Shown here one piece after another: positions 2,802-49,665 of a stretch of 64,000 nt of DNA (the first letter of the stretch is position 1; each line of letters starts with the position of its first letter). A program made the translations under genes and the position numbers. The stretch is from Octopus vulgaris (taxonomy: Eukaryota). The notes below the pieces were generated by a model. That model saw only the letters and a list, made by a program, of their open reading frames with translations. It did not search any database and had not been told where the DNA came from. The stretch spans positions 92,938,001 through 93,002,000 of the forward strand of contig OX597818.1 of the NCBI GenBank assembly GCA_951406725.2, in the 5' to 3' direction.

Positions 2802-3466
2802 AAAGTTTTTTAGGACGAATATAAGACCTATATCCAAGTAGCAGAAAGATCGCCCAAAAGTGTATATTGATATTTAAATGTATTTATATATTCATCTATA
2901 CACAGATGTATGTATAATGTGTGTGTATATATTTCCATAGAGGTAACCTTTCACTCCATACAAAGTTTTTTAGGACGAATATAAGACCTATATCCAAGTA
3001 GCAGAAAGATCGCCCAAAAGTGTATATAGATATTTAAATGTATTTATATATTCATCTATACACAGATGTATGTATAATGTGTGTGTATATATTTCCATAG
3101 AGGTAACCTTTCACTCCATACAAAGTTTTTTAGGACGAATATAAGACCTATATCCAAGTAGCAGAAAGATCGCCCAAAAGTGTATATAGATATTTAAATG
3201 TATTTATATATTCATCTATACACAGATGTATGTATAATGTGTGTGTATATATTTCCATAGAGGTAACCTTTCACTCCACACAAAGTTTTTTAGGACGAAA
3301 ATAAAATCTAAAGTTATCTCTAAGTAGCACAAAGATCGCCCAAAAGTGTATATAGATATTTAAATGTATTTATATATTCATCTATACACACATGTATGTA
3401 TAATGTGCGTGTATATATTTCCATAGAGGTAATCATTCAATCCATACAAAGTTTTTTAGGACGAAA
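2802..3466 (+). repeat. 160-bp tandem repeat, about 4.1 copies, inside the Helitron
   Basis: TAGGACGAA recurs at 2811, 2971, 3131, 3291 and 3457 (periods 160, 160, 160, 166). Confidence 0.95.
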
Positions 3467-3716
3467 ATATTTATATATAAAAGAAAGGTTGTGTGTCTGT
3501 CTACTCCGATTTAGATTCCTAACTACTCCCACATTTTGCGATGCAGCTTAACCAAAACCGGGTATCTTATAGTCGTGATTCATATCGAGCCCTTCTGGGT
3601 ATTAGCGCGCGTCTACGATGAGTCTATGATTTTGCAAATAATTTACCATCATTTTTTTCCATTTTAATGCATATTTTTTTTAATAAAGGGAAGTAACTCT
3701 CAAACTTCACACCAAT

Positions 3717-5433: not shown

Positions 5434-7849
5434 ATCATCATCATCATCATCATTTAGCGTCCGCTTTCCATGCTAGCATGGGTTGGACGGTTCAACTGGG
5501 GTCTGGGAAGCCAGAAGGCTGCACCAGGCCCAGTCTGATCTGACAGTGTTTCTACGGCTGGATGCCCTTCCTAACGCCAACCACTCCGTGAGTGTAGTGG
5601 GTGCTTTTTACGTGCCACCCGCACAGGTGCCAGACGGGGCTGGCAAACGGCCACGGACGGATGGTGCTTTTTACGTGCCACCGGCATGGGGGCCAGGCAA
5701 GGCTGGCAACGGCCACGATCGGATGGTGCTTTTTACGTGCCACCGGCACGGAGGCCAGTCGGGGCGGCGCTGGCAACGGACACGGTCAGGTGGTGCCTTT
5801 TACGTGCCACCGGTACGGGGGCCAGTTGGGGCGGCGCTGGCAACGGACACGGTCGGGTGGTGCTTTTTACGTGCTACCGGCACAGAGGCCAGGCGAGGCT
5901 GGCAACGGCCACGATCGGATGGTGCTTTTTACGTGCCACCGGCATGGAAGCCAGTCGGGGCGGCGCTGGCAACGGACACGGTCAGGTGGTGCTTTTTACG
6001 TGCCACAGGCACGGAGGCCAGGCGAGGCTGGCAACGGCCACGATCGGAAGGTGCTTTTTACATGCCACGGAGGCCAGTCGGAGCGGCGCTGGCCACGGCC
6101 ACTATCGGATGGTACGCTTACGTGTCACCGGCACTGGTATCGCAGCTGCAATTTCCATTGATGTTAATCGACTTCGATTTTGGTTCTGATTTCTGATTTC
6201 ATTTGATTTTGATTTTGATTTCCGATTTCCACTTGCCTCAACGGGTCTTCACAAGTGAAGTTTTGTGTCCCAAGAAGGAAAGGTATGCATAAGTCGACTG
6301 GCTACATCCCAGGTAGAGGCCACGGGTAATGGTCTCACTAGTCCTGCCGAGTCTTCTCATGCACAGCATACTTCCATAGGTCTCGGTCTCTAGTCATCTC
6401 CTCAGTGAGACCTAAAGTTCGAAGGTCGTGCTTCACCGCCTCGTCCCAGGTTTTCCTGGGTCTGCCTCTTCCACAGGTTCCTTCAGGCGCTAGGGTGTGG
6501 CACTTTTTAACACAGCTATCTTCATCCATTCTCGCCACATGACCATACCAGCGCAAACGTCTCTCTTGCACACCACAACTGATGCTTCTTAGGTCCAACT
6601 TTTCTTTCAAGGTACTTACACTCTGTTGAGTATGAACACTGACATTACACATCCATCGGAGCATACTGGCTTCATTTCTAGCGAGCTTACGCATATCCTC
6701 AGCAGTCACGGCCCATGTTTCACTGCCATGTAGCATGGCTGTTTGTACACACGCGTCATACAGTCTGCCTTTTACTCTGAGCGAGAGGCCTTTTGTCACC
6801 AGCAGAGGTAAGAGCTCTCTGAACTTTGCCCAAGCTATTCTTACTCTAGCATTTACACTTTCAGCACACCCGCCCCCGCTACTGACTTGGTCACCTAGGT
6901 AACGGAAACTATCAACTATTTCTAGTTTTTCTCCCTGGAAATTGGCAGAAGTTTGTCTCAGAGCATTTTCAGTGTTTATTGCTCCTGAGCATCTGCCACA
7001 TACAAAAACTATCTTCCTAATTAGCCTTCCTTTGACATTGCTGCACCTCTTATGTGTCCATAGCTTACACTTGGTGCATCTTATAGAGTTTCTACCTACA
7101 CCTTTTCTACAGATCGAGCAGGGCCATCTACCTGAAGGCATTTGTGATTTGTCTACCTTACTACTTATTAGGACTCTGGTTTTAGCTAGATTGACTCTAA
7201 GGCCCTTCGATTCTAATACTTGCTTCTACACCTGAAACTTCTCCTCCAGTTCTGATAGAGACTCAGCAATTAGAGCAAGGTCATCAGCATAGAGGAGCTC
7301 CCAACGGCATCCTGTCTTGAATTCCTCCGTTATTGCCTGGAGGACTATGGTAAATAGGAGGGGGCTGAGGACTGAGCCTTGGTGGACCCCTACCTCTACC
7401 CGGAATTCTTCACTGTACTCGTTGCCAACCCTCACCTTACTAGCAGCGTCCCTGTACATGGCTCGCACAGCTCTCACTAACCATTCATCTATCCCTAGTT
7501 TCCTCAATGACCACCAGATAAGGGATCAGGGGACCCTGTCGAAGGCTTTCTCCATGTCAGCAAAAGCCAGGTACAGGGGCTTATCTTTGGCTAGGTATTT
7601 CTCCTGCAGCTGTCTTACCAGGAATATAGCATCAGTGGTACTTTTCCCTGGCACGAACCCAAACTGCATCTCATCTAAACTAACTCTCTCTCTCTAATTA
7701 GTTGGGCTATGACCCTCTCCGTAACCTTCATTACCTGATCCAACAGCTTGATACCTCTGTAATTATTTGTATCTAGGGCATCACCTGTACCTCTGTAGCA
7801 GTTGACTATTATGCTGCTACACCAGTCATTGGGTATGACTCCTTCGTGT

Positions 7850-10285: not shown

Positions 10286-11230
10286 GCTCAATTCACAGAA
10301 GATGATCACAAAGCCTTTTTGGTAGATCAGCAGAACAGAAAATCTTTTTTGAGATCAGCCTGCAAGAAACTCGGTTTACTCCCCAGAAAACGTGAAATGA
10401 AGAAAAGCGAGTTTTCCAGTATTCTTGTCGACGATCCACACGGATTTATGTATTGCCAAATTCCAAAAGTTGCGTGCACTAATTGGCGGCGAGTGTTACT
10501 TGTGTTAACAGGATATTACAATACGACGAAAGGGTCTCAACTGAGAGCTATGGATGTCCATGATTCTTATGATAAGCATTTGACTTACCTCAGTGACCTA
10601 TCAGCTGGAGGAATCACATATCGTTTGCGCAAGTACAAGAAATTTCTATTCGTTCGAGAACCATTTCAAAGACTAGTTTCTGCTTTCAGAAACAAAATCC
10701 TCTCTTCAAAAAATGAATACTTTTTCCAAAGATTTGGCCGCATTATTCTCAAAAGATATCGAAATCGTTCAATGAGTGAAAATTCCATGAGAAAAACAAA
10801 GGTTAAATTTAGTGAGTTTGTGCATTATCTTATCGATGCGTCAACACGGAGAGTTAGTTTAAATGATCATTGGGGTCATTTTAGTCCTTTGTGTCATCCG
10901 TGTTCGATAAAATATGATTTTATAGGTAAATACGAGACATTGGAGAGAGATGCGCATTTTATTCTTCGTGATTTGACACCGAAACACTCGGTTAAATTTC
11001 CATCGCGTAATGACACCTACAGAACTGCACAAACTGGTAATGATTTGGCAGCGCAATATTTCAAAACTCTTTCGCCTGCATCTATAAATAGACTGTGGAA
11101 GATATACCGCATGGATTATTATCTCTTTAATTACTCCTACCCCACGTGGTTAGTACCATCTTATAACAGGAACACAACAATCATTAAACAGTCTTCAAAA
11201 GTAAATCCAGTTAAAATTAAAACTACCTAG
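10286..11230 (+). CDS. CHST11: Carbohydrate sulfotransferase (CHST11/HNK-1ST family), terminal catalytic exon
   Basis: 5'-PSB motif YCQIPKVACTNWRR, 3'-PB motif FLFVREPFQRLVSAFRNK, HW..LCHPC.IKYDFIGKYETLERDA and YRMDYYLFNY. Acceptor tgcag at 10281-10285; TAG at 11228-11230. No N-terminal TM segment, so upstream exon(s) are needed. Exact paralog uncertain. Confidence 0.92.
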   Translation, partial: AQFTEDDHKAFLVDQQNRKSFLRSACKKLGLLPRKREMKKSEFSSILVDDPHGFMYCQIPKVACTNWRRVLLVLTGYYNTTKGSQLRAMDVHDSYDKHLTYLSDLSAGGITYRLRKYKKFLFVREPFQRLVSAFRNKILSSKNEYFFQRFGRIILKRYRNRSMSENSMRKTKVKFSEFVHYLIDASTRRVSLNDHWGHFSPLCHPCSIKYDFIGKYETLERDAHFILRDLTPKHSVKFPSRNDTYRTAQTGNDLAAQYFKTLSPASINRLWKIYRMDYYLFNYSYPTWLVPSYNRNTTIIKQSSKVNPVKIKTT

Positions 11231-41338: not shown

Positions 41339-41467
41339 CTGTTTTATCGTGCTGAGAGAGCGAATCACTGCACCAATAGCATGTGCCCACTGATTCCTTT
41401 CTTCCTCTCCAGCAGCCTGAAGATAAATTTCCCGATCTCCAGATGGCATACATATTTTGAAAGTCCC
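41339..41467 (-). CDS. PLEK: Pleckstrin-like exon (second half of the N-terminal PH domain)
   Basis: GTFKICMPSGDREIYLQAAGEEERNQWAHAI is a PH terminal strand and helix; acceptor tttcag, donor gtttgt; phase 0/0. The eight exons total 954 nt in one open frame. Confidence 0.92.
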
Positions 41468-48462: not shown

Positions 48463-48895
48463 CATAAAAAGGGGGCGAGGGAATTAAGGGTGGGGTAATG
48501 TTCTGTTAGGAATTCAGTTGACATTTTCCAGAGAGTGCTGAGAACTGGCAAGTGAAAAAAAGTGATTATGTACACGCAGGAGCAGAGGAGATGTAGGGCC
48601 AACCCTAAATACTGTTGTAATTAGAGAAGTGCCTTCCTCTGAATCACACCCAACAAATTATTGAAGTCTCAAAAAAAAAAAAAAAAGAAAAAAGAAAATA
48701 TTGTTTTTAAATGTTTCATTTATTTTCCTTCCCCTCCCATTTCTCCTTTCTTAAATATCATTTTTGTCATACAAACAGCTTTCAATGACCAAATAATTTA
48801 GATACTTGTGTGTGTGGTCAGGACGTGGGGGAGGTAGATACACACACACACATAGGTGTGTGTGTGTGTATCAATTTATATATATATATATATAG

Positions 48896-49410
48896 GCATA
48901 ATTAAATCTCAGAATGAGATTGAAACAGTAATCGCTCGATAATGTAAAGTATAGAAGCCATCTTATCATGGCTAACCACATTGGAGAGGGGGTTGTTACT
49001 GTAGCTTTATAGCCCCAAGAGATCTTCGTCTCTAGCTGGCTCTAAACACAATATCTGTGTCTTTGGAGTATTTGCAAAGGGAGGCCATCCTTTCCTCGCA
49101 AGTCTGAGTGATACGCTCAAACTAGTTTCAGGATGTTTGTCCCTCGTCAACGGGCGGCAACCACCAGGTAGCGATGAAAGTGAAGACTCCTTTGCAAATA
49201 GATATAAGTTTTTCTAATGGCGTCTGCCACTGATGTCGAAAAACGAACAGTAAGCATAATTAAATCTCAGAATGAGATTGAAACAGTAATCGCTCGATAA
49301 TGTAAAGTATAGAAGCCATCTTATCATGGCTAACCCCATTGGGGAGGGGGTTGTTACTGTAGCTTTATAGCCCCAAGAGTCCTTCGTCTCTAGCTGGCTC
49401 TAAACACAAT
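48896..49410 (-). mobile_element. Partial tandem repeat (358-bp period) with a minimal hammerhead; Penelope pLTR/retrozyme-like
   Basis: 48896-49052 is repeated at 49254-49410; (TA)n on both sides; hammerhead-like motif in between. Confidence 0.7.
49114..49156 (-). ncRNA. Minimal type-I hammerhead-ribozyme-like motif
   Basis: Minus strand: CGCCCG-UUGACGA-GGGA-CAAACA-UCCU-GAAA-CUAG-UU-UGAGCG (stem I, core, stem II, GAAA, palindromic tetramer, UH). Confidence 0.65.
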
Positions 49411-49425
49411 TATATATATATATAA

Positions 49426-49665
49426 ATGGCCCAGTGATTGGGACAGCGGACTCGCAGTTGTAGGATCGTGGTTTCAATTCCCGAGTGTTTATTGAGCAAA
49501 AACACCTAAAAGCTCCACGAGGCTCCGGCAGGTGGGGGTGGCAATCCCTGCTGTACTCTTTCGCCACAACTTTCTCTCACTTTTTTTTCAGTTGGCCTGC
49601 TTGCTTAACCTGCGGGGTGGCGTCATTTGAAGGCTAGATGTGTAGCAACATCTGATAGCCTGGTG
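49426..49665 (+). mobile_element. Third tRNA-derived SINE family (Arg-TCG-like head)
   Basis: TGGCCCAGTG..CAGCGGACTCGCAG..GGTTTCAATTCCC has A/B-box spacing; not a complete cloverleaf. Confidence 0.55.

What the first reader, a model, noticed from the sequence alone, without database searches (positions are those of the whole stretch)
48896..49410. 358-bp partial tandem unit carrying a minimal hammerhead ribozyme (retrozyme or Penelope-pLTR candidate)
Seen: a 157-bp block recurs exactly 358 bp later with few substitutions, and the element sits between two (TA)n runs. The intervening minus strand reads CGCCCG UUGACGA GGGA CAAACA UCCU GAAA CUAG UU UGAGCG. This gives stem I (5 of 6 pairs), a CUGANGA core with C3->U, a 4-bp stem II, GAAA, a palindromic CUAG in place of stem III, and a UH site. 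Established: minimal type-I hammerheads with palindromic tetramers occur in Penelope pseudo-LTRs and metazoan non-LTR retrozymes, and are thought to cleave as dimers. Inference: this is about 1.4 units of a non-coding, self-cleaving mobile RNA family, possibly copied from a circular or multimeric RNA. It lies on the same strand as the pleckstrin-like gene, in what is probably an upstream intron.
Basis: partly seen in the sequence, partly recalled or inferred. Interest (0 to 1): 0.75.

Follow-up and report, generated by a model that had tools for sequence, protein, structure and literature searches.

The report
Wobble-core hammerhead retrozyme, Penelope-copied
This is one worn copy of a 358-base non-coding repeat found at hundreds of sites in this animal genome; it carries a hammerhead ribozyme motif whose normally fixed C-G core pair is a U-G pair throughout the family, and it likely spreads as a small RNA circle copied by the enzyme of Penelope-type jumping genes.

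Summary
In detail: a 157-bp repeat 358 bp apart (4 mismatches), TA runs on both sides, and a minimal type I hammerhead on the minus strand. The insert is 1.44 units of a dispersed family (747 exact hits of one 23-mer). U3 is a family trait (261 exact U3 cores, 0 with C3), not decay. Two sister families (355 and 362 bp) keep stems I and II by compensatory changes; one shares U3·G8, the other has the published U3-A8. Copies show Penelope footprints: random 5' ends, two fixed 3' ends about 45 nt apart, and back-to-back arms with one end of each type (20 of 28 pairs; none with two alike). The arms mostly share subfamily alleles. Best reading: a non-LTR retrozyme, likely copied from an RNA circle by a Penelope-type enzyme. 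It is not the end of a known autonomous element; no partner was found. This copy has one ribozyme with two private stem changes, lies sense in a pleckstrin-like intron, and is likely inert. Cleavage and circles are untested. The scan noted such elements before, here and in other genomes.

The parts
48896..49410 (-). Whole insertion: 1.44 units of the 358-bp family, 5'-truncated at 49410, ending at the 'long' 3' end
49053..49410 (-). One full 358-bp unit (u1-u358 in this report)
49254..49410 (-). First copy of the 157-bp overlap
48896..49052 (-). Second copy of the 157-bp overlap
49114..49156 (-). Minimal type I hammerhead motif: stem I, U3-U4-G5-A6-C7-G8-A9, 4-bp stem II, GAAA, GUU site; private U at 11.1 (49130; family C in 57 of 61) and at 1.1 (49119; family C in 56 of 58)
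49121..49126 (-). Palindrome ACUAGU, predicted dimer stem III
   Evidence: sequence; palindromes ACUAUAGU and ACAUGU in the sister families
49119..49120 (-). Predicted cleavage site, after GUU
   Evidence: hammerhead numbering; untested
49065..49205 (-). Long stem predicted to enclose the ribozyme region (TTTGCAAA blocks on both sides)
   Evidence: circular folds of families A, B and C; not recovered by RNAalifold on the joint alignment
48896..48940 (-). About 45-nt 'tail' between the short (u~113) and long (u~158) 3' ends, with a hairpin at 48905-48921
48875..48895 (.). (TA)n target on the 3' side
49409..49424 (.). (TA)n target on the 5' side
41339..41467 (-). Host pleckstrin-like gene, exon downstream of the intron that holds the element (C-terminal part of the first PH domain)

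Best explanation
The locus is a 5'-truncated, 1.44-unit copy of a dispersed 358-bp non-coding repeat family with a U3·G8 minimal hammerhead motif, likely a non-LTR retrozyme that borrows a Penelope-type reverse transcriptase/endonuclease. Inferred cycle: loci with two tandem ribozymes are transcribed; the two motifs pair through ACUAGU and cut slowly after GUU; the 358-nt monomer is likely ligated to a circle; the Penelope enzyme nicks an AT-rich target and primes at two fixed points of the RNA, about 180 and 225 nt after the cut site; one or both target strands are extended for a variable length, which can exceed one unit, giving single arms (as here) or back-to-back arms with one short and one long end. 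This copy has only one ribozyme, with private changes in stems I and II, and is likely inert. Shown: family, copy anatomy, covariation, allele sharing. Inferred: cleavage, dimer, circle, helper.
For: Copy number: 1540 candidates, 40 scored, long matches 92-100% identical; 747 exact hits of a 23-mer, control 0. Core: U3 in 40 of 40 aligned segments from loci chosen by overall similarity; 261 exact U3 cores against 0 C3. Sister families B (355 bp, U3·G8, GUC) and C (362 bp, U3-A8, GUC) are homologous (local alignment z 76 and 14); 6 of 12 hammerhead pairs change on both sides, 93% of cells paired against 20-43% when slid. Unit circles fold below shuffles, z -2.9 to -5.9 in 7 of 7. Of 88 segments in 58 loci, 77 end at u103-115 or u155-165, while 81 of 88 5' ends lie elsewhere; 50 exceed one unit, the longest is 2.51. 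Back-to-back pairs with one short and one long end: 20 of 28 in A, 8 of 10 in B, 10 of 13 in C. This matches the Penelope partial tandem, inverted 5'-truncated copy and one-sided tail (PMC8557442, PMC3846280). Arms share subfamily alleles at 177 of 182 sites against 63% between loci. In 4 loci both arms exceed one unit, up to about 3.2 units in total. Intact RT plus GIY-YIG ORFs of 781 aa with paired terminal repeats and U3-A8 hammerheads exist in the genome.
Against: No cleavage or circle data. No autonomous element shares sequence with the unit among 60 GIY-YIG loci searched by blastn and 5 element 3' regions aligned (z below 1.2), a small sample of 6136 candidates. U3·G8 lies outside the hammerhead consensus (PMC3088659), GUU is a weaker site (recalled), and minimal Penelope hammerheads cleave poorly in vitro (PMC4209133); 8 of 9 Xenopus retrozyme dimers did not cleave (bioRxiv 10.64898/2026.07.22.740005). 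No 3' end falls at the cut site and only 5 of 88 5' ends lie within 5 nt of it. Covariation rests on three related families, and 23 of 500 shuffles reach the count of 6 pairs. Antisense circles also fold well (z -2.4 to -4.9). In family C arm concordance is weak (33 of 42, against 70% between loci). About half the A loci were picked by similarity to a 1.4-unit query, which favours long copies.
Confidence: 0.72

Rival explanations
1. The family is Penelope-mobilised, but its U3·G8 ribozyme no longer cuts; the template is a linear multimeric transcript, and the hammerhead fold is kept as a structural or dimerisation element or by inertia.
For: Non-consensus core; no insertion end at the cut site; Naiad elements spread without canonical hammerheads (PMC8557442); weak activity of minimal motifs (PMC4209133).
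Against: All other core positions and both stems are kept across three families with compensatory changes. Insertions of 2.5 to 3.2 units would need sources of three or more units, and the longest single arm seen in A is 2.51 units.
Confidence: 0.17
2. The repeat is the pseudo-LTR of an autonomous Penelope-like element, and these are its 5'-truncated stubs.
For: Same insertion anatomy and minimal hammerhead type as Penelope ends (PMC4209133); the search for a partner was shallow.
Against: The spacing is fixed at 357-358 bp across loci and 5' extensions continue into the previous unit, not into coding sequence. The one pair of ribozymes 3.7 kb apart that was fetched encloses an L1/Tx1-like insertion, not a Penelope ORF.
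Confidence: 0.08
3. A local tandem duplication or satellite with a chance hammerhead-like string.
For: No Rfam match; this copy's motif is not its best local fold.
Against: Hundreds of dispersed copies, fixed 3' ends, flanking direct repeats and covarying sister families.
Confidence: 0.02

Closest known systems
Metazoan non-LTR retrozymes (Cervera and de la Pena 2020, PMC7229834; Li, Clavereau and Pollet 2026, bioRxiv 10.64898/2026.07.22.740005)
   Same: Non-coding unit of 350-390 bp as in mussel, GC 44%, one type I hammerhead per unit, tandem copies, stable circular fold, co-occurrence with Penelope-like elements.
   Different: Minimal motif with a family-wide U3·G8 core and GUU site; dispersed short arms and back-to-back pairs rather than long arrays; circles and cleavage not shown; no sequence link to a Penelope end found. 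This single copy fails Li et al.'s 'active' criterion of two tandem ribozymes.
Minimal hammerheads in pseudo-LTRs of EN+ Penelope-like elements (Cervera and de la Pena 2014, PMC4209133; Craig et al. 2021, PMC8557442; Arkhipova et al. 2013, PMC3846280)
   Same: Tiny palindromic stem III, partial tandems, inverted 5'-truncated copy, one-sided tail, AT-rich and (TA)n targets; U3-A8 variant known from Schistosoma Cercyon.
   Different: No ORF; fixed unit; tail about 45 nt (59 in family C) against 30-40; U3 faces G8, not A8; no unpaired base between A9 and 10.1 in this family.
LINE-1 twin priming (recalled, no call)
   Same: Both target strands prime, giving an inverted 5' arm.
   Different: Here the second priming site is fixed relative to the unit and independent of where the first arm stops.

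Membership tests
Type I hammerhead ribozyme | Core C3 U4 G5 A6 N7 G8 A9, G12 A13 A14 A15, U16 H17 | tested here: not met
   All positions fit except 3, which is U in 261 of 261 exact cores with G8 kept; consensus from PMC3088659. So a core variant, not a consensus member.
Type I hammerhead ribozyme | Stems I and II with covariation | tested here: met
   6 of 12 pairs compensatory across three families
Type I hammerhead ribozyme | Site-specific self-cleavage | not testable with these tools
   needs in vitro assay
Minimal (dimeric) Penelope-type hammerhead | Palindrome in place of a stable stem III | tested here: met
   ACUAGU, ACUAUAGU and ACAUGU in families A, B, C
Non-LTR retrozyme | Small non-coding tandem unit with one type I hammerhead per unit | tested here: met
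   358-bp unit; loci with two tandem ribozymes exist, e.g. L007, L013, L017
Non-LTR retrozyme | Stable, self-paired circular fold | tested here: met
   z -2.9 to -5.9 against 40 shuffles each; antisense also folds
Non-LTR retrozyme | Accumulation of unit-length circular RNA | not testable with these tools
   only assembled contigs were available
Non-LTR retrozyme | Target-site duplications longer than 4 bp when present | tested here: met
Autonomous Penelope-like element | RT plus GIY-YIG ORF between pseudo-LTRs | tested here: not met
   no ORF in the unit or joined to the copies examined
Penelope-mobilised element | 5' truncation, partial tandem, inverted 5' copy, one-sided tail | tested here: met
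Penelope-mobilised element | Sequence shared with an autonomous partner's terminal repeat | tested here: inconclusive
   none among 60 loci and 5 aligned 3' regions, out of 6136 GIY-YIG candidates

The most novel reading that the evidence does not exclude
Three related retrozyme families in one genome spread with U3·G8 (twice) and U3-A8 cores, capturing the wobble intermediate of the C3-G8 to U3-A8 switch as a working, slowed ribozyme; and their insertions record a Penelope enzyme priming both target strands at two fixed sites on a single RNA circle, which would explain the long-unexplained Penelope 'tail' and inverted 5' copy.
Probability: 0.35. Interest if true: 0.65.

Novelty: new variant of a known kind. 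Interest (0 to 1): 0.42.

Why it matters
How Penelope-like elements integrate, and what their hammerheads do, are open questions (PMC8557442). A short, protein-free, high-copy passenger with two fixed priming sites and a predicted circular template is a minimal substrate for an in vitro Penelope assay, and intact 781-aa enzymes lie in the same genome. The A/B/C series is a natural test of how weak a hammerhead core can be while the element still spreads. The locus itself is probably a harmless intronic fossil.

Tried and rejected
Rfam scan: no hammerhead hit. Pair of ribozymes 3.7 kb apart (L061) as an autonomous partner: rejected, it encloses an L1/Tx1-like insertion. C3-type hammerheads with the same palindrome (121 hits, control 16; 30 loci examined) belong to other, diverse families without similarity to this unit. 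Autonomous elements L158, L159, L163, L164 and L089: no similarity of their 3' regions to A, B or C. Expression: no RNA holder listed; contigs of three guessed-RNA runs and one run of unknown kind cover parts of the family and one contig goes back 357 nt, which a genomic tandem explains equally; no evidence either way. A divergent loose end seen in run X15 has no exact match in this genome. No RNA support for the host intron was obtained. A-to-I editing as the source of G8: no clear strand bias, shared A>G against T>C sites 8:3, 3:2 and 2:3. Fold-back copying of the first arm: the two 5' ends lie within 10 nt in only 2 of 21 pairs, and either arm can be the longer (9 and 10 of 21). A general U3·G8 pattern gave 2126 hits against 788 in the control, too noisy to define more families. 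Pfam PH search of the genome missed this gene's short exons. Protein search with the 781-aa ORF gave many relatives but no clade name. Lunse et al. 2017, Przybilski and Hammann 2007 and Hammann et al. 2012 were not held; they bear directly on whether U3·G8 cores are already described and active.

Full report
1. Observation. The 157-bp block lies at 48896-49052 and 49254-49410, 358 bp apart, with 4 mismatches, between TA runs. The minus strand carries the motif as written. I number the unit u1-u358 from 49410 downward; the motif is u255-u297 and the predicted cut is between 49120 and 49119. Rfam has no hit, and the local fold of this copy is unremarkable (z -0.53), so the case for the ribozyme rests on comparison.

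2. Family. The window lies in a 2.8-Gb animal genome with about 30 large contigs; octopus-like is my inference from recall and from earlier scan notes, not from a call. The element has 1540 candidate sites, of which 40 were scored, and one 23-mer occurs 747 times, control 0. Copies differ from the column majority by 2.9% and form subfamilies. The exact core occurs 261 times with U3 and never with C3; U3 was also invariant in 40 of 40 segments picked without regard to the core. The family has C at 11.1 and C at 1.1, where this copy has U (57 of 61 and 56 of 58), so this copy has lost the conserved G10.1-C11.1 pair and the G-C pair beside the cut, both now G·U.

3. Sister families. Among GIY-YIG loci fetched in the partner search, two unlinked insertions proved homologous: family B (3216 candidates, 40 scored; direct-repeat spacing 354-355 bp in 7 of 9 loci that showed one; core U3·G8, palindrome ACUAUAGU, GUC) and family C (2861 candidates, 40 scored; spacing 362; core U3-A8, palindrome ACAUGU, GUC). 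On 13 aligned copies, 6 of 12 hammerhead pairs change on both sides and 93% of cells pair, against 20-43% for slid controls; 23 of 500 shuffles reach 6 pairs, and only three lineages are involved. Seven unit circles fold at z -2.9 to -5.9, antisense at -2.4 to -4.9.

4. Insertion anatomy. I mapped 58 loci, after dropping 9 of 67 as overlaps, near-duplicates or the LINE-interrupted locus. Of 88 segments, 40 end at u103-115, 37 at u155-165 and 11 elsewhere; 5' ends are spread over the unit. Fifty exceed one unit, two exceed two. Of 28 back-to-back pairs, 20 have one short and one long end, none has two alike, and 8 have at least one other end; B gives 8 of 10 and C 10 of 13, each with one long-long pair. 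The short end is 173-180 nt after the cut site in all three families. These are the features described for Penelope-like elements: partial tandems, an inverted 5'-truncated copy and a tail at one end only (PMC8557442, passages; PMC3846280, passages). Flanking direct repeats of 8-21 nt occur at 19 of 58 loci. The two arms share subfamily alleles at 177 of 182 sites against 63% between loci; B agrees (12 of 13), C only weakly (33 of 42 against 70%). Either arm can be the longer, and the 5' ends rarely match (2 of 21), which argues against simple fold-back copying, the model raised in PMC3846280. Four insertions have both arms above one unit. I infer two priming events on one template type, most simply a circle. 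The window copy is a single arm with the long end.

5. Helper. Intact Penelope-like elements exist: 781-aa ORFs with RT and GIY-YIG domains, near-identical terminal repeats and U3-A8 hammerheads; a CxxCxxC linker suggests the Neptune clade (motif as described in PMC8557442; no tree built). None of 60 GIY-YIG loci or 5 aligned 3' regions shares sequence with the unit. The helper is therefore inferred from footprints.

6. Host context. PH exons at L218:270-106 and window 41467-41339 are in phase and cover successive parts of the PH profile; DEP-type exons follow at 35797-35708 and 34930-34799 (Pfam scores below the curated cut-offs, short exons). The element lies sense in an intron of about 33 kb. 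With one damaged, dimer-dependent motif it likely does not cut the pre-mRNA.

7. Known and new. Non-LTR retrozymes are described from coral, mussel and axolotl as circular RNAs, with Penelope elements as proposed helpers (PMC7229834: passages and sections 14 and 17; PMC7761336: passages; bioRxiv 10.64898/2026.07.22.740005: parts 1-3 of 5). Minimal hammerheads, their low activity and the U3-A8 variant are in PMC4209133 (parts 1-2 of 4) and PMC3088659 (passages). I found no paper on cephalopod retrozymes (PMC13282606 has no 'ribozyme' or 'retrozyme' in its main text, supplements not read) and none on a natural U3·G8 family (0 papers), but the three papers most likely to cover it were not held, and bioRxiv supplements are closed. 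That C3U lowers activity is recalled. The scan had already noted one-short-one-long retrozyme insertions and wobble cores in other genomes, and family C in this one; I read those notes.

8. Verdict. A real element of a known class, with a family-wide core variant and a clear mechanistic footprint. New variant of a known kind; interest 0.42.

Noticed in passing
L061:3143-6430 (G000:C6:79931000-79940500): An L1/Tx1-like element (404-aa ORF1 with a CCHC knuckle, ORF2 remnant with zf-RVT) is inserted into a copy of this family just upstream of the ribozyme, with a duplication of about 20 bp; one case, possible target preference untested.
   Followed up: partly
L158:906-5672, L160, L161: Young, intact Penelope-like family: 781-aa RT-GIY-YIG frame preceded by a 330-480 aa upstream frame, terminal repeats 99-100% identical, U3-A8 hammerhead with palindrome AACAUGUU; many copies with the full open frame.
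   Followed up: partly
L167-L191 (family B) and L192-L216 (family C): Sister retrozyme-like families of 355 and 362 bp, more abundant than this one by candidate counts; B is younger (1.6% from majority).
   Followed up: yes
G000:C1:4098330, C1:81505150 and others: A further recurrent U3·G8 motif (TTGAYGATAGGCAA...GAAACCTAGGTC) with back-to-back pairs, probably a fourth family.
   Followed up: no
G000:C1:94322213-94326393: Four family-B ribozymes on one strand about 1.38 kb apart, a larger tandem unit.
   Followed up: no
L068-L097: 121 C3-type minimal hammerheads with palindrome ACUAGU (control 16) from other families; L089 has a GIY-YIG remnant about 600 bp upstream.
   Followed up: partly
window 10672-10709 (-): Second match to the U3 hammerhead-like pattern, without an obvious stem II.
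   Followed up: no
window 49425-49560: A very abundant short repeat begins right after the right TA run (high contig depth), likely SINE-like.
   Followed up: no
window 2802-3469 and 5600-6134: Tandem arrays of 160 bp (4.1 copies) and 67 bp (8.4 copies); dispersed ~120-190 bp repeats throughout the window.
   Followed up: no
run X15, loose end at window 49116: Contigs that share u295 onward but carry a different upstream sequence resembling another hammerhead 3' half; no exact match in this genome.
   Followed up: partly
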